Assembly: GCA_964583975.1 (NCBI GenBank)
Contig: CAZOXU010000003.1
Coordinates: 7,805-71,804, forward strand
Source: an uncultured Planctomycetales bacterium
GTDB lineage: Bacteria; Omnitrophota; Gorgyraeia; Zapsychrales; Fredricksoniimonadaceae
Direction: 5' to 3'
DNA length: 64,000 nt
Positions within the stretch are counted from its first letter, which is position 1; every line of letters begins with the position of its first letter. Made by a program: the position numbers and the translations under genes. The notes beneath the pieces were generated by a model. That model saw only the letters and a list, made by a program, of their open reading frames with translations. It had not been told where the DNA came from and made no database searches. Below, piece by piece: positions 3,670 to 53,400 of the stretch.

Positions 3670-3670
3670 C

Positions 3671-5361: not shown

Positions 5362-5420
5362 CACGCTTTGCAGAGCTTGCTGCTGCGAAGCTAAAAGCGA
5401 AAGCATTTTAGCGAAGCAGA

Positions 5421-5507
5421 GCTGGGATGGCGGAACTGGTATACGCGCTGGTCTCAAAAACCAGTAGCTTCACGGCTGTGAGGGTTCGATTCCCTCTCCC
5501 AGCACCA
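5421..5507 (+). tRNA. tRNA-Leu (anticodon CAA), type II with long variable arm, CCA encoded
   Basis: GCTGGGATGGCGGAACTGGTATACGCGCTGGTCTCAAAAACCAGTAGCTTCACGGCTGTGAGGGTTCGATTCCCTCTCCCAGCACCA. D-arm GGCGGAA..GGTA.ACGC typical of Leu. Anticodon loop CTCAAAA. Confidence 0.8.
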
Positions 5508-5552
5508 ATAACCTTGGTTTTCATCTAAAAAAATGTTACACTTTTCTTAGAT

Positions 5553-5879: not shown

Positions 5880-5889
5880 TTAATTCTTT

Positions 5890-10895: not shown

Positions 10896-11353
10896 GAAAA
10901 CCTTCTCGGAAGAATTTAAGATTGAAAAATTGGGATTATTCTTCGGCAGGATATTATTTTGTAACCATATGCACACAAAATCGTTTTCCATATTTAAAAA
11001 ATCCTGACATAAACAATATACTCCATCAAACGTGGTGTGAATTAAAACAGAAATATGACAATATTGTGTTGGATGAATTTATCATCCTGCCCAATCATAT
11101 TCATGGAATCATTATCATCGTAGGGGCGGACCTATGTGTCCGCCCACAATTAGGGTCGACCCCTACGTTGGGCGAAATGATCCGTTGGTTCAAAACAATG
11201 ACCACAAATTATTTTATTCACGGGGTAAATAAATCTGGATGGAAACCATTCTTGGGTAGATTATGGCAACGCAATTATTACGAACATATCATCCGTAATG
11301 AACGATCTCTTTACGACATGCGACGATATATCACACATAATCATATGGAATAA
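10892..11353 (+). CDS. REP-associated tyrosine transposase (RAYT; IS200/IS605-like Y1 HUH transposase)
   Basis: 153 aa. HUH motif LPNHIHGII. Catalytic Tyr region WQRNYYEHIIRN. ATG overlaps comM stop (ATGA). Confidence 0.7.
   Translation: MRKPSRKNLRLKNWDYSSAGYYFVTICTQNRFPYLKNPDINNILHQTWCELKQKYDNIVLDEFIILPNHIHGIIIIVGADLCVRPQLGSTPTLGEMIRWFKTMTTNYFIHGVNKSGWKPFLGRLWQRNYYEHIIRNERSLYDMRRYITHNHME
11120..11166. repeat. REP-like palindrome GTAGGGGCGGAC..GTCCGCCC..GGGTCGACCCCTAC embedded in-frame in the RAYT gene
   Basis: Perfect outer inverted repeat GTAGGGG/CCCCTAC and inner GGGCGGAC/GTCCGCCC. Encodes VGADLCVRPQLGSTPT, inserted between the HUH motif and the downstream conserved helix. Confidence 0.6.
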
Positions 11354-32400: not shown

Positions 32401-35400
32401 ACGTTCTTGCATCACGCAGATAATCTTCCCAGACCGCATAACTATTCGTAAGATTTAAAACTTTGATCTCATTAGCTGGAATACCAGACAGACCGCTACT
32501 GAGAATCTGGGATAATGTTGATTTTCTCGTTCCTCTTTCTCCTGCGATTACAATCACATACGGTCTTGTTATTTGATCCTCAGATATGGATATTTTCCTT
32601 ACACCATCAAGTATCCTGTCGCGGATATTGCGCAGAATCATGAGTTGGTCATCCTTATTATTAAATCGGTGATGAATGTAGGTGGTGATCACAAAGGCGA
32701 AACCTTGCCGGAAACCGAATTGCGGGAAGAATAAAATAGCTAAATAATTAAACAAAGTAATAAACAAAATATTATGCCATGGTGGTGGCTGAGGAGCATT
32801 TTTCGTACGCACAAAATGCAATGCAAAAAACACACTCCATGTGACTAGTGTTGCCAACCATACTGGCCATACGATCATGAGCACTAGATTTGCGCTCCAA
32901 CCTAATACTTGCTCAATCCAGGCTTGATGCTTACGATTAACACCCAATCGGTCTAATACAACTGTCAGCAATGGGATCATCCCACCTGTTGGTTGATCTT
33001 CTTGAGAGTTTTTGATTAAATTTCTCCAATCGATCCCTTCACTTTCAGCAATAGATGTCAAGAATACCGATACTCGTCGTCGGTTTATAACAGTAGAGGT
33101 GACATCATCATTATAAAAAACCCTGTCGTTATTTATCTTCAACAATCTTTTGATCATCGTTTTCGATAGTCTTTTTAATCCATGTCTCACACTCAGCGCT
33201 TGGAATATAATTTCCAATTGTGAGCCTGACAATCGAACAGAAGATTCATCAATAGCATCTGCTCTCCTTACATGCTCAGCAAAATCTTCCTCTGTTTTCT
33301 CAACAGCTGGAATTTCTTCACCCACCATCTCTCGCCAATTAATTCTTAAATGTTCTGCAACTAAAATCACAAATGCGCAGATGTATTGCAATTTTTCTAA
33401 AGAAATACCTAGAGAACGGACAAAAGCTCTATCAACGACAAGTTGAGGCACGCCTAAAATGTAAGCAATCATTGATCGCTGCAAGAATTTGAATTTTGTC
33501 ACAGCATTAATGCTTTCAAGAATTCGTTCTAACTGAACAGGTTCTAAGATAGGAGTTTTGGGTGCTCTTTCGCGTGCTGGCTTAACAAACGTTCTAAAAA
33601 ACTTAACCAATTCCATTCTTTGTTGGGACGCTCTTTTAGCTGAAGGCCACAAACATGGACTTAAGCTTTCAATAGTAGTTTTATAAAATTGAATAAGCCT
33701 GAGACGGAATTCTTTGTACTTTTCTCCCGTTGTATCAGACTCTATTTCCGACAACATTTTCTCATTGATGCCTATCCTGTGAGCGATATCCTTATTTTTC
33801 AAAGATTTATCAAACAAAAGCTGAACAAAAGATCTTATGAAAAATAGCTCTATTCCTCTTAATGAGTTGTTTTCAATGATATCTTCATCAGCTTTCTCAA
33901 GACCTAAAATCCTCTTCCAAGGAATACGATTGGTTTCAGTGAGAGCGATCAGGGTTTGTGTGACGCGTTTTTGACGTTCTAATACTGCAGCAGGTCCCTT
34001 ATCCTTAATATTCGTCAAAAGATACGTTTGTACTCCTGCATGTTGGGCTATATCAGCCTGGGTCAAGCCTGCTTCCATGGAAAGAACCTTAAATAAAACA
34101 ACAAGCTGTTCTTGAGTAAATACCAACACTGGAACTTGCGCCTCTACTTCCTTTTCCAATTCATCTAATATCCCCATCCACCTTAGACGAACTTCTTCTC
34201 CGGCTTGATATAAATCTTTTGCATTCTCTGTGCGTCGAACACCAGCAGAAGAATATCCTAATTTTTCAGCCATATAATCAGTTGATACATATCGCAAAGT
34301 CTGTTTTATTTTTAAACGGCGTTCTCTTAATTTATTTCCATCTTGTACCACCACCTTAGGTGATTCTGCTGCAATTGAGACGACCGATACTGCTTGAAGT
34401 TGAGTAGGCAAAATTTCAGTAACCTTTCGGGAAACTAAGGCTTCTTCCTGCTGACGAATTCTATCTTGTTCAATATGTTGTAATTCCCTGATTCTTACTA
34501 AGATTCCTTTTTCTCTTAATAAACTCTCTAAAACGTGATCATCAGAGATCTGTAATATCTGCTTAAACATATCCCAATCAAACCTGGCTTCATCGGTAAA
34601 GATGCCAATCAAGACTTCAGGAGTAAATTGGTGCGGATCTCGATGGTCGCGTTTTCGTTGCACGTCCTGATGGGCTGCTCGTTGTCGACCTTCGCGTTGG
34701 TTTTTCTTCCATGTGGCACCAACCAAATCATTCGAACCTATCATTCCACGATATTGAGAAAATGGAAGGTAGCCATTCTTTGCGCTTCGGCTATAAATCA
34801 TATGCCAACGATTTTGGCCTACTTTGCGAATATAAATGTGCTCCATATCTAGTTTTAATCTTGTAAAAACATCGATGACCTTAAAGAAATTCAAATAATA
34901 CTTCTTACCTTCTATGGTAATGGAGAAGTGTTTGAGATAGGTCAGCGCTTTGTGATTAGCATCTTTAACTTTTTGACTCTTCAATACTAAACAAAGTGCT
35001 TCATAAGCACAGTTTTGTTCATACATTTTCTCTTTTTTCTTATCGGCAACTATTTTCTCTTGCTCTAAAACTTGATCGATATTAGGAATCTTTGCTCGGC
35101 CGCTTTTCATAAGCTCCCAAGCTTGTAGTTTTAACCACTGGGCATCGGCTTTATTGATAATCGTTCCATTGCATACAGCCACTAAATAAGCTTCTGGCCA
35201 ATCTCTTTGGGCAGCTACATCAGCCAAACTGTACCCATACTCCCTAAATGTTCTGGGAACCCCTCTTAAATCCATAGCATCAAATTCTTTATAATCAATA
35301 GTTGGTACAAGACCTGTGGGAGCTGCCTTAGGTTCTGTTTTGATCTCTTCTTTAGGTTTTACCTTGGGCTTAAGTATCACAACAGACTTTTTGATATCAG

Positions 35401-38400
35401 GCTTTTTATCAGCTTTGGGTTGAGGTTCAGTAGGCTCACGTTTACGTTGAACCGATTTTGGTTTAGGTACTCTAGGTGGTTGTGGACGAGGGAATTGTGG
35501 CCTTAAACTCAATTGCTGTGAATCAGCCGCTGGATTAGATTCATCAGTCCTCTTGGCTCTACCCAATATAATATCCTCCAAAGCTTCCTTGATGCTTTTA
35601 AGCAGAGCTTCATCTCGCACAAAATTATTAATCAAATTCCTTATAGAAAAATCTGGTACATTTAAGCGTCTAGCAACACGCGTAAGCATCTCACCCTGTA
35701 AAAAAGGTTTTAATTCAGGACCTGTCTTGATCCTTATAATTTCATCTAAAGAAATTCTATCGGCACCGATCCAGGCATTGCGGGGGAATTGGTCGAATGG
35801 GATTGCATCTTTCAAATCATTCTGACTTAAATTAATCCTAGAAAGATCCTGACAATACGTAACGTGAAAATGATTTATGATTATTTGATGATCAAAAGTC
35901 TCAAGCAAGGTGGGTTTGTAATAAAGAATACCGGTAGATAAAATGACTACAAAATGCTGCGCATCATCGCGCCTGATTTTATACAGCTTTAGCTGACTAC
36001 CAAATGTCTGCTGCATTGCGTCCCAAGCGAATCCTGATAACATCAAGACCCTCTTGTTACCATCTTTAAGGGTCACAATATTGATCTGATCTACCGGAAT
36101 CTTGGCCTGATAATGTCGGACGATTGTTCGGAGCTCTGGCTCGGTCACATCAATTCTTTGATGCACTGCCTGCGTGTATGCCATTACCTGACAATTCTGA
36201 TACAACAAAGCCAAAACATCTAAACCATCTAAGTAATGATCAGGGATTCTTTCTACCGCATCGATATTCTGTGCACCTATAAACGCACGCGCTGATTGAT
36301 CGTCTTTTATATTTTGATAAGTATCCCACAGTGAAATGTACATATACTTATTGGCTAAATCCGTATGATAAAGAATTCCCTTCTCAAATGTTAAAGGATT
36401 AATGGTGATAAACACTTTGCGGGCGATTTCTTCGGTCAATACATCTCCTACTTTCTCAAAAACCTCGATGATATCGTAAATGACGCGATGGTTATAGCTA
36501 TGAGCCGTAACCTTTTCCCTGATTTTCTGGGCAATGTCTGTGTATCCCAACTGCTCCAAAACTACTTCCAAGCAATTTTTGAGCGGCAGCCATGTTGCTG
36601 GAGCTTCCAAAAGATACAAGGCTGTCTTTTTGTTTGTGTCCGGATAAACTCTACAGGGACAATCAGCCGCTGATAAAATCTGCGTAATTACCTTTTGCAT
36701 ATCACCCGTGCTATTGAAACGGTTCCTCAATAAAACTTTCCCTCCTTCTTTTAATACCAATGGTAAATCTCGTACAAACTGGACTAAATCTTCTGCATAA
36801 AAATCTACCTGCCATCGCGAAGCATATCCTGCATATGGCCGGCGTTGTGTTATGTACTGGTCTAATTTATGTGCAAGCTCACTGCCTTGCGCATACTCGG
36901 GCATGGCCCACAATATTCGGTCAAACTTATTCCAAACGCCGCTTTGGATAAACTCAGAAGGATACAAACCTGTCTGTGCTTCGACCATGAATCCGCCAAT
37001 GCGTGCAGATACTTTTATATTGGCTGTTTCTAATGAATTACGCGCCAGAACATGAACAGGTCTATCCATATGTAAAGATGCCAACCAGACATTAATACCG
37101 AAGCCTGGCTCGATAGCCAAGACATCCCCACCCGTAACAAAATCAAATGATTCTGGATAATTCTGATCCTTTCCTATCCAACGAGATTTAAAGCTCGAAG
37201 GTGGCAATACTGTTGGGAAGATGGGAAACATCATGCGGTGTAGGCTAGTGGATGAAGCGCTTGCCTTGAGATGCTCATAACCCTGGGCATCAAATTCCTG
37301 CATAGTAACTAACGACGTTTTTTCATCATATTCGACATATACAAAAGGTTTTCGCTTGCCTCCAATGGGGAAAATAATTTGGCCTAAAGACTTATCCTGG
37401 ATATATTGCGCAATGATGCTTTGGTCGCTGGCATACTGCTGAGCTAAGGCTGCCCATTGCTTGGCTGCGCCAAGTCTCATGGAAGAAATTTCAACATAAT
37501 AAGGACTTAAATCAAAATAATGAGGGTATTCATGATGTTTTCCAAGCAGAAGCTCCCTGAGCAGAGATTCACAGAGAACAGGAAAGACAGCAAGCAATCG
37601 ACCATCCGATGAGAACAATAAATCAAAAGAATCAACTTCTTTCGAGTATCCAAAATCGGATAACTCGTTATGTAACAACTGGATTCCTGTGGGAGGTCGA
37701 GGAGGATACAACTTCTGCTCAACCTTCATACGTACCACCATCTCACCAGCAGACATATTTTCTAGACCCAATGTTTTGATCAATTCAGCCGCGACACTTT
37801 CACCCCAAGCTTGATACAAGGCTGGCACAGTCTCTGGAAAACTACGTACAGTCTTAGTAAAACGGTACAAACCTATTTGATAATTACGTCCATTCTTAAT
37901 CTTAACCGATGCTACCTCCTTCATATCAAAAAGATACTCTTCAGCCAAATCTTTAAGAACTTTCTCGCCACGCCGCGGAAAAATTAAATAGATCTCACCT
38001 TTGTCTCGTAGAAATATGGGAGCTGTTTGAAGGAATCGACGTAAAGTCCTATAGTCACTATCAACAATCGCCATATCAAAATACGACAATGGTATGGCGC
38101 CATTTTCATTAGGGTACCATGGCGGATTCCAAAGGATTCGATTAAATCGCTCTCCTTCTTTAACTGGCGCAAAAAGATCACCTTCGCGAACTTCAACCAT
38201 CGTAAAATTACTTAACAAAGCAGCAGCCTCAGATACAGATCTTGGATTAATGTCTATTGCTACATACGTTACATCTTTAGATTGTGTTTGTGTAGCCATC
38301 GACTTGGTTAATTCACCTGAACCTGTACCCATTTCTAACACATGTTCGCCCGGTTGAATCAATGAGGCTAATTGCCTTTCTACAAGTCCAATAATATGAG

Positions 38401-41400
38401 GATCAGCCCGTAACACTGAATCATTGTTCTTTAAAAAGAAATCGGGTTGTTCAATTAAATCAGCGAGTTCTTCAACAGCGCTTTTCTTGTGCAAATGCTT
38501 CATACCACGCTGGCGCACCAGGAAGCTAGTAATTTCACTAGCCAAGAAATCTAAATCTTTTTTACTTAATTCCAGACTATTAAGCTCAATAAAGTTACGT
38601 TGCACAGTTTCATCTCCTGGAGCGTGTAAAAATCTTTCTTTAAATCCTTTTCTTAACTTCAAAAGCTTTAATCTTAAATTCTGCAAGCGTTGATCCCACT
38701 TATAATCCGGCCACAGTTCGTACAGATTACGTAAAACTTTTCCTTTTTTCGATGAATAAAACAATAGCAGCGGCACCAAGTAATCTTCGACATTGTGATA
38801 TCCGATTTGTTCGCCCAAATCTACCAACACCGCTCGACCATCTCTTAGATTACTATCAAAGAATTTCTGAGGAATATGCAGCTCATCAAACATAATAAAG
38901 GATTGCTCAAGCATTTGCTTTGCTACCTTCCCTATCTCTGGAGCCCTCCACACCTCTGGATACTTCATAACAACATTTCCACGATGGAGATCATATGGTG
39001 CGACAAAATCTTTTGTTTTTCCCTTATTTAATTCAAAGAAAACATTCATCAGAAGAACAAACACTTTATCGGCAAAAACCGGATCGATGTATTTAGTCTT
39101 TTGAATTTCTCGAATAGGTCGTCCATCAATTAATTGTTCTAATGAGACAATATAATGAGGCCCTTGGATAGGTTGAGTGCGGACCTTTCCAAATTTACCT
39201 TTTTTCTTCTTCTCGACGTAAATAACCTTTGAGATTCTGGGAACTAAGCCACTGTGTTCCAGTCTTTGGTGGGCCTCGAGCTCTCCTGGCTCATACAATG
39301 GCAAACCACGCCTTACGTCAGTTTTAATTAAAAGTTCAAATGTATAGTTCAAACCCTGATCATTCCGTAAAGTAACTGCATAAACGTCTTTGCGCATTCC
39401 GTACCCATGTAACCCCAGACCAACATATACAGTTCCCATAATATTAGGATTCTGCAGAATACTTTCGAGACGATCTTGGAAAACACCACGACCAAACTGA
39501 AGAATATGTGTAACTAACTCTAGAGCAAGGCTAGTGTCTTTTGTAACGTCTTTTAGGTCGATATCCCTAACAATTTTGAAACTGCCTATCGGGCGGGGTT
39601 CATCTGGAGGCTGACCTTTAGACTCCTCCGCCCCGATGTAATCTGTTAAAGGAAGATCGGTAAGCAATTTATTTGGCTCATTCCAAACATTTTTATCCCA
39701 CGATGTTGCATGCAGCCTGCCATTCTGAAATGTCATAACATAAATCCTCTGCAATAATTTAGGCGCATGATTTTTTAAAAACTCGACTATAAAATAAACT
39801 TGAAAATACGGATGCCCATCAATGACTCGCACATTTCGCAGTTCGTTTGAATAGATATATTTATAAAATCGGCGTGCAAGATCATCGGATACTTTCATCA
39901 ATATCTTAAATACACAGTTTCGGCAATTACGCCACTCTTGCGAATCTTCCTCAGGTTCTAGATTATCACTCGTTGTTCTTATATCTAAATATCCGTCATC
40001 TAACAAATCCCCATCATATTCATCTGAGGTGATTGCAGCCGGGTTCGTGCTTCTTTCAACAACATCTATTGGCCGTATAATTAGGTAAGGTTTTTCTATA
40101 GAATTATTATTGAGTAAACGAACAACTAAACTTTCAATCAATTCAAGTCCTAAGAATAAGATAAAAAGTATGAACCCTCCTATAACATAGGTAGAAAGGA
40201 CAAATTGGAAAGGAAAGATCGATGGGGGAAGAGGTTCCAAATATATCCAATCGTTCAATATGCTCAATACAACAATACTTATCGCTACAGGTTCTGCCTG
40301 TATCTTTTTACCCCAAATAAGAAACAAGCTAGATATAACTCCCACAATAGCTATAGGTAAAACCATGTTGGGCCATATCCAGAAAACTCTTTCAGGGACA
40401 GTGACCAAAACGATGTTTTCACTACGAAAATCTATGAGTTTATCAGTCCCTAGAACTATGGCCCCTACTAATAACGATTGAATAGTCGCAATAATGAGGC
40501 GATGTAAAATCTTAAGATCCTTGATACTCTTTTCAACATGAAATGTGTTAAGGAATGCTTGCCACCACAAATTAACCTTCCAGGGGAATAGTTGCGGCAC
40601 GCCACTTTGCTGATAGATGTGATAAGCTAGACCGAAACGCTTACCAAGCTCCTTTTCTTCTTGAATCGTGTGATAATAAGTCTGTATGACCGCAACAAGA
40701 CATAGAGCAAATAATAATACATTAGGATATATTAAAACCATCGACCCCATCATCAACGTCTGTAAGAAATATTGTGGATGGCGCACTAGTTGATATGGTC
40801 CATAGGTGATCGGTTGACCTTTATCAATACGCATTCCTTCTTGGCGGGTTTTTGAAAACCATCGATTAAGTTTTACTAAGGCTGCTGTACTTAAAACCAT
40901 TAACGACATGCCAATAGTAAAGGTGCTCCAATTAAATCCTTGTAAAATTCCTAGACTGGAAGATTTTTCTAACGGCAAAGCCATTAAAATCCCACTCGAC
41001 ACTTTTTGGTTTCTGTCCGGCGGGCCGCGCTGTGAGGCAGAATCCCCTACCCCTGTCAAACCAGAATAACTTCTATGTGTAATTCTTCTTTTTAATACCG
41101 CTAGAATAGAGACCTTTAAAGCCCTCCATGTAATTAGGGCCATTAATCCCAAAGACCAATGTTGAATTTCGAAATTGTTGCACCTGATGATTTGCTGCAA
41201 CATTCTTCTTATTTCAGAAGAATCAGAAATGGTTGAACTTTTAAACTCTACCTTTGTTGCAAAAATTCCAAGCACTCCTGGTTTCCTTCTTAAGAGTGAC
41301 TCGGGCAGGCGTTCCGGAAAGAATTTTTTCCAAAGAGGACGGTATCCAAAAATTGCCATGTCACCTTTGAGTATATTAAAAATCTGAGGAAGCTCGTCTA

Positions 41401-44400
41401 ACCCTGTCTTACGTAAAAATCTACCTATTCGTGTAGCTTGTCCTTTTCGTGGGCCTTTTTGAATCAAGGTAATAAATTTGTATATCTTAAATTTTTTCCC
41501 CAACAAACCTACTCGTCTTTGGGTAAAGAGGATCTTCTTTTCTTCGGAAAATACGAGGATGGAAACAGCAACAACAATCATCAATGGAAGTATAAAAATA
41601 AAAGCTATGCTACCAACGATTAAATCAAACGCCCGCATATTCAAAGGTTGCAAGTGTTCTAAAAACCAACGCCTAGCTTGTTTTAATTGAGAGAATGCGA
41701 AGAAATATAAATAAAGCAAACCTGCCCCTACTCCATAAGCCAAGATATCAAACCAATCAAAAACCATTCCCATATCATTTGGTTCACGAAAAGACGTCAG
41801 AGGCATTAAAACTTCAATGAGGCTACTTATAAATAGTGAAAGCAAGGTTATTTGTACTGCAGAAAGTTTTACATCAAGAATCCAATCCCACAAATATATC
41901 ACCATAGCAAGTAAGAACGGTAAAGAAACATCTGGCAATGAACCATTGAGGATGCCATCTACTTGTGTAATTTCAAAATTACTCTGGCGAAAATTCATAC
42001 CCCAAGCAGAGAGCCACAAGAATAATCCTGACAACAAGAAAAGTTCAATGAATTTATTCAGCCAATCTTTTCTGTGCGGATGCGCATATCTTGCAATAAT
42101 TCCCCAAAGAATCACAATTCCCAAAATTGCCCAAGTGGAACCCTCAAGATCAATGACATAAAAATATTCCTGAGCCAAAGCATTGCTTAAGATAAATCCT
42201 AGCAAGAGCATTAAACTTACGATTCCTACAAGAAAAACAACCGAAACAGATCCGACTTCAGCACAGCGATCTGTCGACTGAAGCCTGGCAATTGTCCTTT
42301 TAATCCACCAAACTCTTAGAAATGCCGGAGGATGTGATGTTTGCAAAATGTTTTCTTTGAAATAATTTCCTATCGTATCGGTTACATCGTAACCTGCTTC
42401 ATAAGCATAGGTAGCTCCCCAATAATCCGCCCTTAACTCCTTAAACCAACAGACCAACAATTCAGCGAAAACGATAGGAATCAATAAAACAATAGGGATC
42501 CCTAAATACCAAGCTATCATTGAAGCTAACGGAACGAGGAAAGGAAACGGAATAAGTGCTTGAGACATGTTACGAACAATTTTAAAGAATCTGTTTTCTT
42601 GCAAAGCATTGTTTCTAAAAGCGGTTTCTCTGAGATGAGCAATTTCATGGCCAAAAACAAAAGCATGATCTTTCTCACCCCTTTGCTTCATGTCATCTTG
42701 ATCCAGGGTAATTAATGCAGGTATACAATAATAAATCTGACTTCGTTGACCATAGCCTAATACGAATGGTACTTCTTCCAGGGGTTGATACGCCTTTGCT
42801 GCAGCATGTACGTTATCAAATATTCTTAAGATTGTTTGATCCTCAATGACTTCATATGTAGATGGGTTCTTAGATTTGAATGGATAAAAGAAACATCGTG
42901 CAGCGGCATACACAGCCATGCCGACCATGATTAAATCGTCAACCACAGAAAGCAGAACTATTTGGAAGCCCATGGCGATCCCTAATGACATGGATGGGAT
43001 AAGACGAATGTCTATCTTATTTTTATAGTACCTCTGTGTAAGCTTCGTCAGCAAAAATATCACAATACCGTAGGCAAACACATAAAAAATAAAATGAGGA
43101 TGGCGTTCTTGAAATGTTTGAGAAGATTTAAAGGTAGCCTTTATTGCAGACCACCGATTTACTAAATGCGCAGGAACATTTATGAGAAATTCTTCAACTT
43201 GCGGTTTGATTTTAACGATGAGATCTTTGAAGCTATTTAATTGTTGCTGAGTAATATCAGCATTCAATTTATTAATATACTGCGCTAGAAATGTTCTTAT
43301 CGCATCGCTATGCGCGAAACCACCAAACCCAACCGAAGCTTTCCTTCTAACATCAAAGAATGGATTGTTAGGATAAATTTCTTCTGTTGGCCAATTTAAA
43401 GGAAACTTTTTAAAGAACTCATCCCAAGTTAACCGTAATAAACCAACCCACTCATATGTTTGCTCTTCCTTTACTCTAAAAACAGGGGACCCGCTATCAC
43501 CACAAAACACAACCAGCGTTGAGAAATAAACTAATTTATGATATGTTTCATCGGTATGAGCTTGATCGAGAACAAATCCTTCAGGTAATTGTTTTTCTTC
43601 TTTGGCCATGACCCGACCATAACGTCCTTCCAAAAGAGAATCAGAAGGAATATGGATCCTACCCCACACTAAATTATTGGATATTAAATCAAACTCATAC
43701 GACTTAGATCTCAAATTCTTGATGGCTAGGGCAGCATCTGAATCCGCGATTTGATAAAATAAAACGATCGGATCTTCATCTTTAACCTTAGGTGCCAAGG
43801 AAAATGTGATACCCTTTGGCATAGGAACATCGTCTTGTGTTCGTAATAAAGACAGATCTCCTTGGGCTTTATCAAACTCATTAACTACTACAAACGTATG
43901 CCAGTCGTTCTTATCCGTACTGCCACGTTTTTTCTGCTGAACTAATTTAAAATCCTTCTCACATTTAGAGCAGACAACATGATACTCCGTTAGAAAAAGA
44001 TTATCAGCTATTTGAACGGCCCTACCTATTGAATATTCTGAATCAACATCATAAAGCAGCCCGCTAATATCAGCTTGGGTAAGTGAGTCTTGAGAATTTA
44101 AGATGCTTTGTAAATCTCGCAAATGGGATTGTTTTTGTCTAAGAGTTAAAGTAATCGCAGGTGCAGCAGCACTTTCAATCTGTGCTGATCTTCCCATCAT
44201 TGGTGGATGCTGAGCAAAAGCTGGAGCTGAAGCAAAACAAAGAACGGTCAAAACCCCTAGCCAGGCTTGACGCAAAGCATTATTGGTAGTACCCTTAATT
44301 ATATGATTAAACCATCTGCAGGTTACGTCTCTAATATCAAAAAAGCCATTGCTAAACTTCCCCCGAAAGAACGTGTTCAATTGATTGACTCTTTGCAAAG

Positions 44401-47400
44401 AGAAAGTTGGGCTCAAAGATTTAAGCAGCTTCTCAAACGCATCAATGCCCGCTTTGCCAAACATCCCCTGTCTGCTAAAGAGCTCAATAAAATTATTGAA
44501 GACGCTCGGGAAGAATATCATGCTAAAGGCAGTCGTTGATACTAATGTCCTCGTTAGTTCGCTTCTAAAAGGTACGACTGCTAGAAATATCATCGCCACA
44601 CTCACCCTCAATAAATTTACTCTTGTACTCAGCGAAGATATTTTTGAAGAGATTGTATTTACCTTACGAAAACCTCGATTAGCAGAATTTATTCCTGAAT
44701 CAGATATAATTGTGCTGTTTGCGTTACTGCACCAACGTAGTTTATTTGTTAAACCGAGCAACATTGTTAACATTTGCAGAGACAAGAAAGATAATAAGTT
44801 CCTGTCTTGCGCTTTAGCGGCTAAAGCTGACGTTATCGTCAGCGGAGATAAAGATCTGCTCGTGCTTAATCCCTTCGAAGGTATTGCAATTATTTCTCCT
44901 ACAGAATTTCTGATCATGCTGTACAAGGTTTGAATCCGAACTATCGCTTTTTTATTCCATGGCGTCCAGTCTTTGAGTGGAACAATGAAGGTTCCCAGAA
45001 ATGGACCAAACAAACGCCAAAGGTAAGCTTCTTCATATAAGAAAACAACCTGGCCTGACCAATTCAAATGAACAGCTTTGGGAGGAATTGCCCCTAAATT
45101 TTGTTTAAACCGTATAGGAGAAACAAGACAGAAGAATATAAAATGCACCATATATAAGCCAAAAAATATAAAAGCAAAATGTCCTACTATCGGTAAATAA
45201 AAATTAGTGAGGAATAAAACCATTAGTGATGGCAAGGCAATTATAAGACTTGCAAATTTATTGATCATTAAAAGAGCAAAAATCCAAGTGTCGTTATATT
45301 TAGATGGATTTTGCTTAAGATATTCCCCCCATGAAAGCGATCTAGTAGGCACATTTCTCTTCTCCCAAATCATCCAATAGACTGTTAACAGCGATAATGC
45401 CATTCCCAATGTAGTAAAGCCCACCGTGCTTCCACTAGCTACCAAAGCCGCTGATCCAATAATTCCTATTGGCAGAGCTGCGAATGTAAAACCACCTTGG
45501 GTTGATTGAGGGGTTGGATCTTTTTGAAGGTTTTGGACAGTCGGTCTTTGGGTCCATTGTTTTAATTTATTCCAGACAAGTGAAGCTCTAGCCTGCCGCA
45601 AGGCACCTTCCACCCTTTCTTTTAAATGTTCCAGCAACAGTCTGACATAAAGCTCCTCAGGGTGTTGAACAGCAGCTAATTTCACAGTATTAATCAAATA
45701 ATCTTCAACCACGCTCGAAGCATCGATCTTACCGATCAGAAGATTTGCTTCATCTAAACGGCGCAAAACCTTGCCCACTAAAAGTTCTCTGTTCTCTGGA
45801 TTTTGATCTACTTCCTCTAAGCGGCGCTGGGCGACATCAAGCAATTGCTCAGCCCAAGTTAAACGATTTTCATCAGAAGATCGTATCTCCTGCCGAGCTA
45901 AATCAAGCAAGGCCCCATGTTGCAAAGCAATCCCAGCATTGGCAATTTTTACCGAGTTGATATTGGCGCTTAATAAATGACTTGGTGTAATGAAAGAAAT
46001 GTCTGCTTTTCTAGTGAAACGTGTGTAATTCGAATATGAAAAAACACTAACTGGAAGATCAAGATCGTAAACGCCTTTAGGTTCTTTCATTGCTCCATCA
46101 ACAACAATGACTAGATCTAAATCCGGAGGGAATTCACGGAAACCATAAATATAGCTTCCCAAAACATAAATACTCCACACTTTCACATTAGGACCGATAT
46201 GTTTATAAGCCATGTCTTGAGCCCATTTGACAAGCACATCAGAATTAATACTATTAAGTCTCTCCACAAAAATAGTCTTGGCCCCGTCACTAAATGGGCC
46301 GTAAATAGTTTGGTTGATCTGTTGCAAATATTCCGGGGGCATCAAACGTTTAAAACGAGGATCTAATACCATCGGTTTAAATTGCCTTTGCCGTCGAGAT
46401 ATCCAAGTTAATTCAGATAACTGCGCAAGTGTCAAGTCATAGCGCCTGGCCAACAAACTTCGTACTTTTTGTACAGAAAGTCCACTATTACCCGATGCCT
46501 GCTCCCGACCCACTAAAATGGCAGCGACACTACGCAAATCTCCTTCAGTCAGCCAGAAAATCAGTTCATCATTAATTCTTGTGGTTAGGGCTGGATTATC
46601 TAATGTTGTTCCAGCTAAACCATGAAGAAGTGAAATAGCTATTTCACCTGGTGATTTACGACGAGATCGATAAAGAAATCCTAGAACTTTATCAAGATCT
46701 CTTTCAAGAAACGATTTTGGAAAATCTAAATACGCTGGGAATGTAAGAAATTCTTTGGTGTGCGAAGAGTTGCGCAAAAATTCTTTGATCTTACGTGTGA
46801 TGCGGACAATCCAAAACCAGTGTCTAGAGAATTCAAAACGGGATGAGTTATCTTCAATCAATTTAAACTTTGCTGTTCTCCAACCAATCCAATGCGCCAA
46901 CCAACTCACAAGACTTCCAATACGATGTTGGAAAATAATGCTTAAGAAGATTGCAAGAATGAGCACGGCATCAACTAATCGTGTGGATATTCCCAGAAAA
47001 GGTGCCGACAGCCCACTGAAGAATCCACCAATACCAAGGACCGTCAAAATCTTAGAAACAACTCTATTGTGAGAATCCTGGGAATCTGCTTTTTGCAAAA
47101 ATTCACTCATACTATCATCGGTGCGGATCCATATATCTAAAGAATCAACACCTTCGGTCAGTACGAATGTTACACTTACATTATTGTGTTCTTCATTAAT
47201 ATAATAGTTGACCCATGGCGGGATGTAACTCTCTCCATTGATAAGAATCACTGGCAGACCTTTAGGATCAGAACGAGGTTGATCTTCTTTTACTACCTGC
47301 CCCACATAACTTATTTTAAGGTCTAAATGATGCCTATCTTTTCTATCTATAACAAACAGATTAAGTTCGCCGTCTTTGTCTAAATAAAACACCCCTTCAT

Positions 47401-50400
47401 TATATGGATTGATGGCACACCCAATGGTTTGCCGTTTCTCTAAATGAATCGTGGTCCTAGCTAAACCTTTAGAAGAAGCCTGTAATTTGATTGTCTTAAG
47501 ATGCGGCTTGGGACGCTGTAAAATTCTTTGCTGCAACATTCCCGATTCAAAATCAATAATAGAACCTCGTCCCCACAAATAGGACAAAGTAATTTCCCAA
47601 TAAATAAATAATAAGTTGTGTGCATAAACGATAGCCCAGACATACTTGGTACACCCCGTAAAGAAATCTACGAAGAATAAAAAGTTTAATACAAGCACAA
47701 TAGAGGCATTGGCCATTACTCCCACAAGCGCTTTAAGACCATGGACCTTCCAGGGCATACCATGAAATAAACCAACCCCGATTCGCTTCCAACCATAATC
47801 ACTGCGTCGCCCATTTTCTGGCCCCACAACAAACTGTGCTAAATGATTTGGAATAAGGGCTGCTATAAATAAAATCTGTATGGTAAAAATTTGTAGGGAA
47901 CTTGAATTTCCTAACATCATAGGTAGATTAGCGACCATGGAGGTAGCTTGTTTCCTATTGCGTCGAGTCTTCACTGAAAACCAAGCATACACAACTAAGA
48001 AAATAAGCCATCCCCAAATCCATACTTCAGCCCAATTCCTTACTAACCAATCCCATAAGTTACTTCCCCATCCAGCTGATGCCAAAACGGTTATACCAAC
48101 GATCCCCAAAGGTAGGGCTGCAAATATAAAAACATGCATTTTAAGATAATATCTCAATAAATATAGGCTTAATGCTGCAACGCTAAGCAGGATAATGCTA
48201 GTATTGCTCCAGAAATTATTGCCATCTGCTTCAAGCAATCCTACCCAGGCCTTCTCAGGATTAGGAACTTGCTTAATATCTATATATTGGCTTTTTTCTT
48301 TGGAACTCAGTGCGGCGTACTCTTGTGGGGCAATTAAATGATAAATAAATTGACCATCCTCTGTTTTAAATTCAGTAAGCTTGACGTATTTGAGTTGATC
48401 TTTTAAACCACTTTGACTCTCCATCCACTGAATAACTGCTTGTATCTGTTCAACATGCTGATTAAGAGCGTGCACAAATTTACGCGCACCCATTTTATTT
48501 AAAATCTCATGTCGTTTTTGGTTTTGGTTCTCTAGCCCAAAGACCGTAACGTACCTATCTACGCACATGGGTAAAGATAAACGTGGAGTTAAAGCTATAA
48601 ACCTAGCAGGATCCATCGACAAAGACCTGGCTGCATCCGCATTTAACGGCAGGATTATTGATATTTGGCTTGCCCTTCTTGGCTCGCTTACAATATGAAG
48701 CTTTCCTTGATATAAAAACTCCGCAACCATTCGGGCCGCTTGCAAACCAGTTCCAGCACCATAAGCAAAACCCTGAGCCATTTGTCCTCTAAAGCCATAA
48801 TTCCCTAAACTCAATTTTTCATTCTGGTCAATCCCAATGCCAGTATCTGCAACTGTAATAATTACAATTCCATCATGTTTTTGTAAGCTAATGGCAACTG
48901 TTGAATTTACTAAAGAATATTTAATGGCATTGTGAATCACTTCTCCAATTACAACGTCCTTTAAATTAAGTTCGCCATCTTTAGATTTGATAAAAATCTT
49001 CTGATCAGGAAGATCCATCTTTAAAGTGATGTTTTTGCTTTTAGCAAAGCCTCCTAGATACGTCCCTTGAACCAATTGCATAATCAATTCATTTAAATCC
49101 AAGAGGTTTTCTGTAATATCGCAAGCCGTGCTAGTGGCTGTGACTTTGGACTGATTAAAATTAGCGCCTGACACTAGTTTTTCTGGTTCTTCACTCTTTA
49201 CAAACGGCTTAAACGATAAATACTTCATAGCCCAGAATGTCAAGACAGCCGAAGCGATATGGACCCAGAAATTAATGTATAAACTTTCACCTTCAAGGAT
49301 TCGAGTGCGGAAATTGTCCTTGGTCTTACCCATCTCAACCAAATTAGCCAAGATCCACAGGAAGCTAGCAACGCTCAAACGGATCATCAGTGAACGTCGT
49401 TTTGATTGCTTATCCGTTCCATTAAGGTTTAAATCTTTGCCCTTACGCATAAACCCGAACACAGATATAAGATAGAAATATCCGGTAAGGGCTGGAATAC
49501 TTAAAATCCTTAAATACTGTGCATTAAACTGACTCCACAAGCTTCCATCAGCATCCATACGTTTAAAATAACGGAGGAAACTGTTATTAATGAGATCCCA
49601 ATTACCAACGATATCTTTGCGAATAATAACAAGAATGGTTAAGGCTATAGCAGAAACGAAAGAAATTACCGTTGGCCAATAAATAAACGGACGTGTTTTT
49701 ATCAAAGACTGCTTCTGATAGAACTGTTTATAAAATACATACCCACCTAAGACAACAGCATCCAAAGCCAACATGACAAACATCAGATTCTCATAAATAA
49801 ACGGCCTAGCAATGGTGGATATTGGGGTCACCAACCACGTTATTGTAGTTAGAATGCCCAGCAATGCCATTCGTAGAGCCCAAGGCATCTTTAAAATTTG
49901 CGGTTCTTTGTAATCTACAGATTTTTGTGCTAGAAACACACTACGAATACGGCGAACATGTGGAGCATCAATTTCCTCACGCTTAACTTCCCGATGGATC
50001 GCCTGAATATTTTCAAAACCAATCTTCTTTAGCATTCCTGGAATTCGTCTGGCAGATTGACGATTGGTGCGGCTTACCCAACGTGGCGGAAGAATATTGG
50101 TGATAATAATCCATCCGCCGGGCTTCAATTCATTAAACGCATGGCGATAAGCCGCTCTTACTCTTGACCAACGTTCAAACCAAATGTATTTAAGCCAATT
50201 AAAAAGCTCTACTACAGGCCCTTCAATAGAATGATATAGGTTTGTATTAATGAGCTGCAACCATGACAGTGGATCATTCCATCGTGGCTGTGCATTCCAA
50301 GCTACAAAATCACTGACTCGATGAAACACAACAGCATTACTGCCTGGATATTCTTCTTTAGGAAACCAACGTTTTTGGGTAGCTACATCAATACCAGTCC

Positions 50401-53400
50401 ATCCATACTGGATTTCAGTATCATCAGTACCAAATAATCCATCGTCCCATCTTTCCGTTCTATACTCAAATGCCACATGACGATGCTCGCTAGCCCCTGC
50501 AGCCTTCAAACCTCGGTAAGGCGAACCATTTTGCCCTGCTCCAACTTCCGTGACTACCCCGCCATTGATCTGAATCTTCTGTCCAATCAATTCAAACAGA
50601 GCATCTTCATGTTCATTTCCACTGACACCTGTTGAAAATTCACCTAATAGCTCCTTTGCTTGAGCCAATTCTTCTTTACTCCATCCTTGATCTAAATCTG
50701 GACGAAGTTTGAAATCTTCAATTTGTCTAATGAGATACAAATCATTAAATAAATGAATGCCAATAACAATCAGAGCAGTAAGGCTAAAAGGTTGGGTGAT
50801 TAAAATATACGGTAATAATGGCAGGGCAAAACGAAGTGCAGAGATTATGTCATTCCCGAATGCTTTTATCGGGAATCTAGTGCCTGGATCCCCGATTAAG
50901 ACTTTCGGGGATGACAATAAGTTTCCTCTCTTCTCTATATAGACATGCCAATAACCGAGGCCTAAAGCAACCAGCGCAAAGGTTGCATAGGATAAGCCCC
51001 ATGGCAATGCTGCATTTAACCCAAGGGCGATAGCTACTAACGCTGGTGCCTCTAAGAACAAGACACTTAACAATCCAATGACTGGTTGTTGAATATAAAG
51101 ATACATTAAACTTGATGGCGCTTGGGGGGCCTCTCGAACAACAGTCTGTGCCGGAAGGTGGGCTGGCGCTGGTTTTTCTGCTTTAAAAACACTTTTAATA
51201 TATTTCAACACCCACATCAACGCTGTTGCAACAGCAATTCTCTTTTGCTTCTTAAACATTCTTAAGAATATTGCTGCTGATAACATGAGTGTTCGAATCA
51301 AGGTTTTTGGCATAATGACCAGAAACTTCAACTGACCCCAGACTCCTTTAAAATCTCCACCCTCTGTTATAAATTTCACAAGGCGCTTGAATTCTCTTGG
51401 ATAAAATTCTTTGGCTAATGACCAAATTAAGGAAGGTTGATTATTAAAATCTGCTTTGGTATCAGACAATTCATCAGAAATTTGTAAAAATAACATGAAA
51501 TCGTTTCCAAATTCGACGTCCTGTACTTTGTCCTGTGGAAAACGACCTGCAAAAATATTCTCTAATTCCAAAAGACCACCAAGACGCGTTTTCGCTTTTA
51601 GAATCTCCCACATTTTCTCTACAGTTGGATATAATCCGCTTTCTCGCTCTAGAATGTACGACTCAAATAATTCTTGTGAGACTCTAAGCAAAATATCGCG
51701 TAACTTCTTTGTATCAATTTCGTCCTGCGGCATTTGCACTAAAATCTGGTTGGCCTTGTTTTCAAAATCTTCAACAATCTCTGCTCGATCTCGTTTATCA
51801 TCTTTTGCAACCAATGGAGCTTCGATTTCCTGTAATTGCCTTTGAGTTACACCCTTACTTATTAAAAGACTAGATGGAATCACTGGGAATCGACAAAAAA
51901 GCCGAGACTCAGCAAGAATACCCTTCACTTCATCCAAAGATAATTTATGTCCGAATGTGTCTAAAACTACATCTCCTGTGCGCACATATTGGGTCCAAAG
52001 AATCATCAGTAAATCAAATCTAGACTGCTTCACTATATTTAAATCAACACTCAGCATTTTTACCGCAATATATCCAAAAATACGTGTGGTTGAGTTTACC
52101 TTAATTCCATAACCGCTCCCGTCTTGGGTATCTCTTTTACCATTCATCCAGATTTCTCTAATAAGTTTGAGAAAACTAAATCGACGATCTGAATTTTTCT
52201 GTATTAACCAAAACATGTAAACAAAGATACTAATTACTAAGAAGGCTATTGCGCCCCATACCCAATACCCTGAAAGAACAACCCATGGATAAGCTAACCA
52301 TACCCCAAATACCAAAATACCAACAGTTGTAAGGAATGCTGATAAGACATGCCCACTTTGCGCATTGTTTAACTCAACCCCATCGTTTGTTGCTGTCAAA
52401 TCATGGGCAGGTTGTTCTGGGGTTTCTGGCTTCTTGAGAATTAAGATTGTTGATTCTTTTATTAAGAATTTATACCCGAATTCCTTTTGGATAATTAATA
52501 GAGCCCGCTCTAACTGAGCAATCATCCGGATGACATAAAATTTATCAACCAGTTCCTGAAGTATTTTGTGTTTCTTTATTTCTAATTCTATGACCCCATG
52601 CTCTAAATATGGTAGAAGCACTTCATAAATATCATGCTTTTCTAATTCCGCTATCGACCCAGGTGCTTTTAAGCTTCCCTTTTTACGACGATCGGAAATC
52701 CATTCTTTAATATTAGCGATTTCCTCAATATCAAATAAAAGCGAGGGAGGTTCTTTCTTTGCTTTGGCAGGTCTACCGCCAAGTAAAGTTAAATTTAATT
52801 TCAAAGACTTTGCCCGAGAAAAGATAGCAGTAGGAGTAACACCAAAATATTTCGCTAATTGTGAAGCAGTGGGTGGTTGTTCTTTCGTACTAAATAATTT
52901 ATGTGCCTTACGGAATTTAGATACGGTCAACGTTTTTCTTCCAGGGCTTAACTTTAACCGCAATTGTTTTGCTTTGTTAATTACTTGCTTACCAGTGATC
53001 TTTAAAACTGTAGCCAATTCAAAAGCCGTAGGAGCTTTTGCGGATTTCATTAGTTTCTGATAGGTCTCTCTAAATTGTTTTTTCGACACCTTTTCAGTCT
53101 CAGACCTTAGTTTTAATCGAAGAGCATCCGCACGCTTCATAACGGCTCGGTACTTCAAACCAGTAGCTTTGGCTAATTCTCTTCCCGTTGGCAACCGAGC
53201 TCCATCTATCAAACTCCTATAAATAGCGCGGAATTGTTTCTTAGGCAAAACTTTACGCATCGGAGTCAGTTTTAATTTCAAGTCTTTGCTTCGTTGGCGC
53301 ACAACGTCTGGGGACAATTTAAGCTTCCTAGCCAATTCATCTTTATTTGGTTGCTTGCCTTGGCTTGATAAGTCTTTATAGGCAGCAATAATATCCTTAT

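What the first reader, a model, noticed from the sequence alone, without database searches (positions are those of the whole stretch)
44267..44933. PIN-toxin/antitoxin gene pair nested antisense inside the giant ORF without breaking its frame
The plus strand carries an unmistakable 137-aa PIN-domain protein with a small overlapping upstream partner, the classic toxin-antitoxin layout. The giant ORF reads straight through the same 670 nt on the other strand. There its translation (aa ~6347-6570) turns into Ser/Leu/Thr/Asn-rich sequence typical of antisense reading. An AT-rich 223-codon stretch staying stop-free by chance is very unlikely; I estimate on the order of 1e-5. So either the giant frame is under selection across an inserted TA cassette, or this marks a former gene boundary that was fused. 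Immediately after it (on the minus strand), a signal-peptide-like segment and an S1 protease domain begin.
Basis: seen in the sequence. Interest (0 to 1): 0.85.

Follow-up and report, generated by a model that had tools for sequence, protein, structure and literature searches.

The report
Toxin-antitoxin pair hidden inside giant gene
A complete, apparently working toxin-antitoxin gene pair lies backwards inside a giant (over 13,500-codon) Omnitrophota gene without interrupting it; its codon choices have been purged of anything that would stop the giant gene, and the same arrangement recurs in at least four other huge genes.

Summary
Plus strand: a 137-aa PIN_3/TIGR00305 toxin (44520-44933) and an overlapping 78-aa VapB15-like antitoxin (44303-44539). 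Minus strand: an ORF of at least 13,519 codons (23411-63970, still open at base 64000) reads straight through both. The ORF is an Archaeovorin-type giant gene of an Omnitrophota bacterium, beside mutS-mutL-pilZ as in relatives.

The open frame is not chance. The antitoxin gene is in register with the giant frame and has no TTA/CTA/TCA codons. The PIN gene, where those codons are harmless, uses them normally. Pooled over six cassettes: 0/62 versus 44/170 Leu/Ser codons, p=2.6e-7. Cassette GC3 is host-like.

The same TA family sits antisense and intact in four other large ORFs (1,482-6,404 aa; Omnitrophota and Elusimicrobiota). The cassette is the only sequence those ORFs share with ours, so it is a discrete inserted unit with its own promoter-like element.

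Best reading: an autonomous type II TA cassette inserted antisense at a module junction. Antisense is the only orientation in which its stops read as Leu/Ser. Selection keeps both strands coding, and the giant protein carries a 223-aa passenger linker. The TA's role (selfish, stabilising, regulatory) is inferred only. I found no published report of this. Verdict: new variant of known kinds.

The parts
23411..63970 (-). Giant composite ORF (Archaeovorin-type Omnitrophota giant gene). 13,519 codons from the first ATG; the frame is open to base 64000, so it is probably longer.
   Evidence: In-frame Pfam domains: Sigma70_r3/r4, HATPase_c, M48, Bac_transf, PEMT/ICMT, methyltransferases, NTP_transferase, His_Phos_1. 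37 TM-like segments. Synteny with the 39,654-aa gene of a relative.
44303..44539 (+). Antitoxin gene, VapB15-like, 78 aa (the ORF is open from TTG 44267). It is in codon register with the giant frame and contains no TTA/CTA/TCA codons.
   Evidence: NF047401 E=3.5e-8. 52% identity to the L005 partner. Codon counts. Coding log-odds positive on this frame.
44520..44933 (+). PIN_3 / TIGR00305 toxin gene, 137 aa, full length. Catalytic acidic residues D7, E44, D88/D91, D110, D112 are present. Overlaps the antitoxin gene by 20 nt.
   Evidence: Coding log-odds switches to this frame.
44266..44294 (+). Promoter-like element of the cassette: -35 TTGACG (44266-44271), 17-nt spacer, weak -10 TACCCT (44289-44294). 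This implies a very short or absent leader before ATG 44303.
   Evidence: Read from the sequence. Homologous cassettes have clear TTGACA-N17-TATAnT plus an SD at the same place. It was not picked up by the consensus scan, so this part is tentative.
44267..44935 (-). Passenger segment of the giant protein (aa 6346-6568): the antisense reading of the cassette. No domain; Ser/Leu/Thr/Asn-rich.
   Evidence: no family; composition; giant-frame coding score drops to 0 or below.
44210..44266 (-). Signal-peptide-like hydrophobic segment AWLGVLTVLCFASAPAFAQ that opens the next module of the giant protein.
   Evidence: Read from the translation. Inference only; no predictor was run.
43472..44017 (-). 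S1 (trypsin-fold) protease-like module downstream of the cassette.
   Evidence: Trypsin_2 E=1.7e-4, below cutoff. Triad motifs TEYHVV / GDLSLL / GDSGSP are visible in the translation.
44936..45490 (-). TM-rich module (giant aa ~6160-6345) immediately upstream of the cassette in the giant protein.
   Evidence: Hydropathy segments at aa 6160, 6228 and 6257; translation.

Best explanation
An autonomous type II toxin-antitoxin cassette is embedded in antisense orientation at a junction between two modules of an Omnitrophota giant gene. The cassette has its own promoter-like element, a VapB15-like antitoxin and a PIN_3 ribonuclease toxin.

Antisense is the only orientation in which a gene pair with its own stop codons can sit inside another ORF. 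The pair's TGA/TAA stops read as Ser/Leu on the other strand.

The giant gene is under selection to stay uninterrupted. Every synonymous choice in the TA genes that would make an antisense stop has therefore been eliminated: TTA/CTA/TCA codons in the in-register antitoxin gene, and NNT|TA, NNT|CA and NNC|TA codon junctions in the PIN gene. The TA proteins themselves stay under purifying selection. As a result the giant protein carries a 223-aa composition-biased passenger linker between a membrane module and a secreted-protease-like module.

Shown:
- Both coding layers exist.
- The stop-avoidance is frame-specific.
- The cassette recurs as the only shared element in otherwise unrelated giant ORFs.

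Inferred:
- Both strands are actually expressed.
- The cassette arrived by insertion.
- What it does for the host. My preferred guess is a selfish addiction module that incidentally stabilises a huge, fast-turning-over gene against deletion, possibly with antisense-transcription cross-talk.
For: Identity and intactness of the TA pair:
- Pfam and NCBIfam matches.
- Invariant catalytic residues.
- About 970 full-length homologs of 130-147 aa, with a small upstream partner in each of the three examined.

Strand switch of the codon-usage signal, confined to 44.25-45.0 kb.

Openness is unlikely by chance: P about 3e-4 to 8e-4 given the protein sequences.

Frame-specific codon purge:
- Window antitoxin 0/12 against PIN 8/30 forbidden Leu/Ser codons.
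- Pooled over six cassettes, 0/62 against 44/170, Fisher p=2.6e-7.
- Cassette GC 0.38-0.40 and GC3 0.35-0.36, equal to the host.

Independent replication:
- L005's second, unrelated TA pair (DUF4258 plus a zinc-finger partner) was not used to find that locus, yet it is also antisense and stop-free, P about 1e-3.
- L089 was found through the antitoxin alone and shows the same 0 against 9 pattern.

Recurrence: the same TA family, intact and antisense, in L005 (2,949 aa), L006 (6,404 aa, Elusimicrobia MAG), L090 (5,515 aa, beside mutL-mutS, an Omnitrophota relative) and L091 (1,482 aa).

Discrete unit: the cassette is the only region of similarity between those ORFs and ours.

Selection acts on the TA frames: sense proteins are 50-52% identical between the window and L005, against about 34% for the antisense reading.

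Own promoter-like elements lie upstream of the antitoxin in the homologous cassettes.

The giant gene is real and of a known kind:
- Omnitrophota origin and conserved synteny.
- Matches the Archaeovorin-type description, with proteomic support for the V. archaeovorus protein, in bioRxiv 10.1101/2023.11.21.568195.
Against: - There are no expression data for either strand.
- The window's own -10 element is weak. The consensus scan found no promoter or terminator for the pair.
- No empty site was found, so insertion is inferred from distribution rather than seen. Relatives' giant genes are not alignable with ours.
- L005, L006, L090 and L091 were found through their open antisense frames, so their openness is partly ascertained. 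Only the internal PIN control, L005's second pair and L089 escape this bias.
- The stabilising or regulatory role is speculation.
Confidence: 0.8

Rival explanations
1. Cassette-intrinsic antisense ORF. This TA lineage itself maintains an open antisense frame wherever it is. Either the frame encodes a third, overlapping protein, or it is an adaptation that makes the cassette 'transparent' to host ORFs and operons, avoiding ORF disruption or Rho-type polarity. On this view giant genes are simply permissive landing sites.
For: - L089 (same antitoxin family, 35% GC) has a 239-codon antisense ORF covering exactly the cassette. It is flanked on the same strand by other open stretches in different frames.
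- L002 and L040 have cassette-wide antisense ORFs lying between two co-directional genes.
- About a dozen 216-254-aa predicted 'proteins' in public data are antisense readings of such cassettes.
Against: - L002 and L040 have both genes in the permissive offset-1 register (antitoxin P_open about 0.73). Two such cases among about 24 AT-rich loci is the chance expectation.
- Most small antisense 'proteins' look GC-rich, where open antisense frames are common.
- Among the roughly 80 background PIN_3 loci, most have closed antisense frames.
- The antisense peptide has junk-like composition and no family.
- L089 may itself be a fragment of a large ORF with frameshifts.
Confidence: 0.12
2. Dead relic. 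The TA pair is a decaying remnant that merely supplies linker sequence; only the giant frame is functional.
For: - No strong promoter or terminator in the window.
- Gene callers do not annotate the pair; there is no exact record of the PIN protein.
Against: - Both plus-strand ORFs are intact and full length, with the canonical overlap and all catalytic residues, in six loci that have diverged to 30-50% identity.
- The codon-usage signal is positive on the TA frames and 0 or below on the giant frame.
- The sense proteins are more conserved than the antisense reading.
Confidence: 0.05
3. Chance or artefact. The frame is open by luck or through a sequencing or assembly error, and the 'giant ORF' is really two genes.
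For: Offset-1 antisense frames are fairly permissive (PIN P_open about 0.13).
Against: - The joint probability is below 1e-3.
- The codon avoidance is frame-specific, p=2.6e-7.
- The same configuration appears in five independent assemblies from different projects.
Confidence: 0.02

Closest known systems
Type II VapBC-like toxin-antitoxin modules (PIN_3 / TIGR00305 toxin with a small upstream antitoxin)
   Same: Two-gene operon, antitoxin first. Short overlap with the toxin start. PIN catalytic acidic residues. Own promoter-like element. Patchy, mobile distribution across phyla.
   Different: It is located entirely inside another gene's coding sequence on the opposite strand, and its synonymous sites are constrained by that gene. 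The antitoxin scores below the VapB15 equivalog cutoff.
Archaeovorin-type giant genes of Omnitrophota (West-Roberts et al., bioRxiv 10.1101/2023.11.21.568195; V. archaeovorus giant protein)
   Same: Omnitrophota origin. ORF of more than 13,000 codons. Many TM segments. Chain of sugar/glycosyl transferase, methyltransferase and peptidase modules. A relative has a 39,654-aa gene at the same locus.
   Different: The papers I could search report no nested opposite-strand genes. No SecA_DEAD domain lies in the part inside the window. Our ORF also holds sigma-70 and HTH arrays. Its content is not alignable with the relative's gene.
Antisense overlapping (nested) protein-coding genes in bacteria
   Same: Two proteins are encoded on opposite strands of the same DNA, with the constraint visible at synonymous sites.
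   Different: From my own knowledge, reported bacterial cases are mostly short, novel ORFs of unknown family embedded in ordinary genes, and are often disputed. Here the embedded genes belong to a well-defined family, the overlap is complete (a whole operon, about 670 nt), the host is a giant gene, and the configuration recurs.
In-frame insertions of small mobile elements into ORFs (e.g. Rickettsia palindromic elements)
   Same: A mobile unit persists inside a coding sequence because it leaves the frame open, adding a passenger peptide. Two MITE-like elements do exactly this elsewhere in the same giant ORF.
   Different: The passenger here is itself a functional-looking two-gene operon with its own promoter, not a non-coding repeat.
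TA cassettes that stabilise large dispensable regions (chromosomal integron arrays, genomic islands)
   Same: TA pairs, sometimes reverse-oriented, are interspersed among cargo modules. In L005 the TA pairs, like the other modules examined, lie between copies of a ~150-nt repeat, like cassettes.
   Different: No integrase or attC was identified. The whole 'array' is one continuous ORF. A stabilising role is untested.

Membership tests
Type II TA, PIN_3/TIGR00305 toxin | The toxin matches the PIN_3 / TIGR00305 models above the curated cutoffs over the full length | tested here: met
   PF13470 77.1 bits (cutoff 27). TIGR00305 92.9 bits (cutoff 29.15), profile positions 1-115 of 115.
Type II TA, PIN_3/TIGR00305 toxin | Conserved acidic active-site residues of the PIN fold | tested here: met
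   D7, E44, D88/D91, D110 and D112 are invariant in the 7-sequence alignment and present in the window copy.
Type II TA, PIN_3/TIGR00305 toxin | A small antitoxin gene immediately upstream on the same strand, overlapping or abutting the toxin | tested here: met
   78-aa ORF 44303-44539 overlaps PIN by 20 nt. The same layout occurs in L005, L006, L090, L091 and L089.
Type II TA, PIN_3/TIGR00305 toxin | The toxin is a ribonuclease that arrests growth, and the antitoxin binds and neutralises it | not testable with these tools
   Needs expression and biochemical assays.
VapB15 antitoxin (NCBIfam NF047401, equivalog) | Score at or above the curated cutoff (80 bits) | tested here: not met
   33.5 bits, E=3.5e-8, profile positions 7-66 of 66. 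It is homologous but not an equivalog member.
Archaeovorin-type Omnitrophota giant gene | Encoded in an Omnitrophota genome | tested here: met
   Named MutS best hits are Candidatus Omnitrophica at up to 78% identity. Synteny is shared with relatives.
Archaeovorin-type Omnitrophota giant gene | Giant length (over 30,000 aa in West-Roberts et al.; 10,000 aa or more counts as 'very large') | tested here: inconclusive
   At least 13,529 open codons; the frame runs off the window end. A relative's gene at the same locus is 39,654 aa.
Archaeovorin-type Omnitrophota giant gene | Numerous TM helices plus glycosyl/methyl-transferase and peptidase domains | tested here: met
   37 hydropathy segments. 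Bac_transf, PEMT/ICMT, MTS/Methyltransf_31, M48 and an S1-like protease.
Archaeovorin-type Omnitrophota giant gene | Divergent SecA_DEAD helicase domain (present in most members) | tested here: not met
   Absent from the Pfam scan of the 13,519 aa in the window. It could lie beyond the window.
Antisense overlapping gene pair under dual selection | Evidence of purifying selection on the embedded (TA) frames | tested here: met
   Intact ORFs and catalytic residues in six loci at 30-50% identity. The sense frames are more conserved than the antisense reading.
Antisense overlapping gene pair under dual selection | Evidence of selection on the host frame across the overlap | tested here: met
   Frame-specific absence of stop-creating codons, p=2.6e-7. 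P_open below 1e-3. Replicated in L005's second pair.
Antisense overlapping gene pair under dual selection | Both strands transcribed and translated | not testable with these tools
   Needs strand-specific RNA-seq, Ribo-seq or proteomics.
Integron-type cassette array | attC-like recombination sites and an integrase | not tested
   The L005 junction repeats have no Rfam match. No attC model was available. There is no integrase in the window's Pfam results.

The most novel reading that the evidence does not exclude
A lineage of VapB15-like/PIN_3 toxin-antitoxin cassettes is specialised for living antisense inside the giant composite genes of Omnitrophota and Elusimicrobiota. It is 'ORF-transparent': its codon usage is shaped so that the host frame stays open. 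It is invisible to gene callers. It may serve as an addiction module that protects 40-120-kb genes from deletion and/or tunes them through convergent transcription. If so, giant genes would be a previously unrecognised habitat for hidden functional genes, and a clean natural system for studying long antisense dual coding.
Probability: 0.3. Interest if true: 0.85.

Novelty: new variant of a known kind. Interest (0 to 1): 0.72.

Why it matters
1. It is an unusually clean case of long (about 220-codon) antisense dual coding in bacteria. A well-defined protein family sits on one strand and a 40-kb ORF on the other. The same operon supplies an internal control: PIN against antitoxin.

2. Annotation pipelines systematically miss real genes nested in giant ORFs. 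Neither our PIN protein nor any close relative of it (all hits are 50% identical or less) appears in protein databases. Only the antisense 'junk' does, as part of the giant proteins.

3. It constrains ideas about giant Omnitrophota genes. The frame must be read through even across a passenger segment, which argues that uninterrupted translation of the whole ORF matters. The gene's content turns over by gain of discrete modules.

4. It suggests a testable role for TA modules in stabilising or regulating giant genes.

Tried and rejected
- **Relatives of the giant-ORF flanks.** The indexed protein search, GTDB genomes and JGI metagenomes found nothing. The 'collinear homolog without the cassette' test could therefore not be run.
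- **Exact look-ups.** PIN, MutL and the identical MutS gave no record.
- **Foreign GC-rich codon usage as the cause of openness.** Rejected: GC3 is host-like and PIN uses the forbidden codons.
- **Intrinsic antisense ORF in L002 and L040.** Within chance, because both genes are in the permissive register.
- **Other nested genes.** Other plus-strand ORFs of 100 aa or more inside the giant ORF have no family and no coding signal. The same holds for minus-strand ORFs in L006 and L090.
- **Alternative genetic code.** Irrelevant: the frame has no TAA, TAG or TGA at all, and neighbouring genes end normally.
- **L005 junction repeats as a ribozyme or other known RNA.** No Rfam hit. The window has only two tRNAs.
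- **Recurrent junction motif in our ORF, like RSELR or GARLA in its homologs.** None found.
- **Flanking direct or inverted repeats or target-site duplications around the cassette.** Nothing beyond chance.
- **Consensus promoter/terminator scan.** Uninformative.
- **PDB sequence search for the protease.** No hit.
- **Antitoxin family in other collections.** Not found in viral contigs. In JGI metagenomes only L005 itself and L089 were found.
- **Structure prediction.** Not run: PIN identity is already secure, and a single-sequence model of the passenger segment would be uninformative.

Full report
**1.

The minus strand carries an ORF from 63970 down to 23411: 13,519 codons with no stop. The frame is still open at base 64000, so the gene probably extends beyond the window.

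On the plus strand, 44520-44933 encodes a 137-aa protein. It matches PF13470 PIN_3 (E=2.4e-21) and NCBIfam TIGR00305, 'putative TA system toxin, PIN family' (92.9 bits, cutoff 29), over the full profile.

Upstream, and overlapping by 20 nt, is a small ORF open from 44267. By comparison with homologs it most likely starts at ATG 44303 (78 aa). It has no Pfam hit but matches the VapB15 antitoxin model across positions 7-66 of 66 (E=3.5e-8, below the equivalog cutoff).

The giant ORF reads this DNA as aa 6346-6568. That stretch has no family match. It is the most compositionally extreme 223-aa window of the whole protein: S+L+T+N is 41% against 25.7±3.7%.

**2. Both strands look coding, and the signal switches strand**

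I used a codon-usage log-odds trained only on the ordinary flanking genes. It is positive for the giant frame along nearly the whole 40 kb (mean +0.20). Over 44.25-45.0 kb it drops to 0 or below. There the antitoxin frame (+0.28) and then the PIN frame (+0.15 to +0.23) become the best of the six frames. This is the only sustained strand switch in the ORF.

The PIN protein keeps all the invariant acidic residues of its family. Its roughly 970 database homologs (50% identity or less) are 130-147 aa. The three whose contigs I examined each have a small upstream partner.

**3. The open frame is not chance**

- From the window's own genes, antisense stop frequency is 0.0625 per codon in the in-register frame (the antitoxin case) and 0.043 at offset 1 (the PIN case). 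That gives about 1e-5 for the whole stretch.
- I also recoded the two proteins synonymously with host codon usage. The frame stays open in 0.2-0.6% of trials for the antitoxin and 13-14% for PIN, jointly 3e-4 to 8e-4.
- The decisive test is internal. In the antitoxin gene, a TTA, CTA or TCA codon would be a stop in the giant frame. In the PIN gene those codons are harmless. The antitoxin has 0 of 12 Leu/Ser codons of these kinds, PIN has 8 of 30, and the host uses them for 35% of Leu/Ser codons.
- Cassette GC (0.38-0.40) and GC3 (0.35-0.36) are host-like, so foreign codon usage is excluded.
- Pooled over six cassettes of this family: 0/62 against 44/170, Fisher p=2.6e-7.

**4. What the giant ORF is**

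MutS next door is identical to a protein on a 216-kb NCBI contig. Its named relatives are Candidatus Omnitrophica. Relatives with 79% and 87% MutS identity keep the order mutS-mutL-pilZ-giant gene. One of these giant genes is annotated at 39,654 aa.

The ORF is a chain of normally free-standing modules with 37 TM-like segments and internal paralogous blocks:
- sigma-70 r3/r4 and HTH arrays
- HATPase_c
- M48 and S1-like proteases
- a complete Bac_transf domain
- PEMT/ICMT and several methyltransferases
- NTP transferase
- histidine phosphatase

This fits the 'Archaeovorin-type' giant proteins of West-Roberts et al. According to that paper, the V. archaeovorus protein is supported by proteomics.

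Content turns over fast. The C-terminal 2,539 aa of the relative's gene share nothing with ours, although they are again transferase, methylase and protease modules.

**5. The configuration recurs**

I ran an exhaustive HMMER search with the 1,200 aa ending in the passenger segment. It unexpectedly hit that segment in other predicted proteins, including very large ones. These hits are PIN cassettes read backwards (...SLSPVTI... is the reverse reading of ...TGDKDL...).

| Locus | Host ORF | Nested genes on the opposite strand |
|---|---|---|
| L005 | 2,949 aa | PIN (50% identity to ours) plus antitoxin (52%) |
| L006 | 6,404 aa, Elusimicrobia MAG | PIN_3 plus homologous antitoxin |
| L090 | 5,515 aa, directly beside mutL-mutS (MutS 72% to ours) | PIN_3 plus antitoxin |
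| L091 | 1,482 aa | PIN_3 plus antitoxin |

All copies are intact, and all use the same antisense register: antitoxin in register, PIN offset by one.

L005's ORF also reads antisense through a second, unrelated pair (DUF4258 plus a zinc-finger partner). That pair played no part in finding the locus, and it has P_open of about 1e-3.

In about 80 background PIN_3 loci from many phyla, the antisense frames are mostly closed.

**6. The cassette is a discrete unit**

For each of the five large proteins that hit the segment (the four above plus P0135, an Elusimicrobiota protein not checked at the DNA level), the only similarity to our giant ORF is aa ~6333-6549, the cassette. This holds even for L090 at the same chromosomal locus.

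Upstream of the antitoxin start, L005, L090, L091 and L089 have TTGACA/G-N17-TATAnT plus a Shine-Dalgarno sequence. The window has TTGACG at 44266-44271, in a context shared with L090, but a weak -10 and almost no leader. The consensus scan saw no promoter or terminator.

In our ORF the cassette lies between a TM-rich module and a module that opens with AWLGVLTVLCFASAPAFA|Q, followed by an S1-like protease. That is a module junction.

**7. Mechanism**

- Shown: the dual coding, the frame-specific purge of stop-creating codons, and the recurrence of the cassette as the only shared element.
- Follows from the genetic code: only the antisense orientation lets a gene pair with its own stops sit inside an ORF, because TGA/TAA/TAG read as TCA/TTA/CTA on the other strand.
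- Inferred: the cassette inserted at a permissive junction. Selection for uninterrupted translation of the giant gene removed or excluded antisense stops. The TA remained functional.
- Speculative (about 0.3): the TA acts as an addiction module that stabilises the huge gene, or cross-talks with it through convergent transcription.

**8. Rivals**

- A cassette-intrinsic antisense ORF, either a third gene or an 'ORF-transparent' design, is not excluded. It is suggested by L089. The L002 and L040 cases are within chance.
- A dead relic is contradicted by intactness across deep divergence.
- Chance or artefact is contradicted by the statistics and by five independent assemblies.
- Caveat: most of the recurrent loci were found because their antisense frame is open. 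The unbiased evidence is therefore the PIN-versus-antitoxin contrast, L005's second pair and L089.

**9. Novelty**

TA modules, Omnitrophota giant genes, antisense overlapping genes and in-frame mobile-element insertions are each known. I found no report of genes nested antisense in giant genes, or of a whole TA operon embedded antisense in another ORF. The literature access is limited, so this is not proof of absence. I rate the finding as a new variant of known kinds, with interest 0.72.

Noticed in passing
window ~50848-50917 and ~56138-56215 (minus strand): Two copies of a ~70-80-nt MITE-like palindromic element (terminal inverted repeats TGTCATCCCCGA...TCGGGAATGACA) lie inside the giant ORF. 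They share the same orientation and both are stop-free. After an 8-nt indel their 3' halves are read in different frames (...LDYRQKHSGMT versus ...RFPIKAFGNDI). There are no copies elsewhere in the window. This is a second kind of in-frame passenger in the same gene.
   Followed up: partly
window 63971-64000: The giant frame is still open at the window edge, upstream of the first ATG. A relative's gene at the same locus is 39,654 aa, so 13,519 aa is probably only the C-terminal part of a longer gene.
   Followed up: partly
giant ORF aa 763-1329 ~ 3342-3859; aa 1355-2198 ~ 5365-6156; aa 5123-5249 ~ 10941-11052 ~ 12966-13089: Large internal paralogous blocks, including a ~110-aa domain of unknown function present three times (53-63% identity). 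Two of the three copies follow an enzyme module (HATPase_c, NTP transferase).
   Followed up: partly
P0121, P0126, P0127 (RSELR); P0128, P0125 (GARLA/GARLS); P0122, P0124 (AGLE): Large proteins (1,440-6,037 aa) homologous to one module of our ORF are chains of modules, several recognisable as complete proteins (e.g. RidA-like). The modules are joined by a short, genome-specific junction motif repeated 4-12 times. The DNA behind the motifs could not be fetched, and their nature (hairpin, cleavage site or recombination scar) is unexplained.
   Followed up: partly
L005:1-9011: In the 2,949-aa ORF both antisense TA pairs, like the other modules examined, lie between copies of a conserved ~150-nt repeat (core CCCGTCGGCACGCGCGGGGCGAGGGATTGGGATGG; eight junctions by the translated repeat). 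The repeat is read in frame as a ~50-aa linker. It gives a cassette-array-like architecture and has no Rfam match.
   Followed up: partly
L006:9-1307: The giant frame of the Elusimicrobia MAG is open upstream of its annotated start. It runs antisense through an annotated ParE/PhdYeFM pair (627-1151), which is possibly a further nested TA.
   Followed up: partly
L087:14901-22517: A relative (MutS 79%) has a 39,654-aa gene at the same locus. Its last 2,539 aa (GT9, methyltransferase, Rce1-like and M50 modules) share no detectable similarity with our ORF, so the gene's content turns over rapidly.
   Followed up: yes
L001:8698-17882: A PhdYeFM/PIN_3 pair sits on the same strand within a PUFA-synthase (pfa-like) gene cluster, between a PS-DH gene and a 2,453-aa KS/FabA gene.
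   Followed up: no
window 29292-30029 (+): A 245-aa plus-strand ORF inside the giant ORF (offset-1 antisense frame). It has no Pfam hit and no coding signal, so it is probably a chance open frame in a Lys/Glu-rich repeat region.
   Followed up: yes
L089:1-1367: A short 35%-GC metagenome contig carries the same TA family. A 239-codon antisense ORF covers exactly the cassette, flanked by open stretches in other frames that reach both contig ends. It could be a frameshifted large ORF or a three-gene arrangement.
   Followed up: partly
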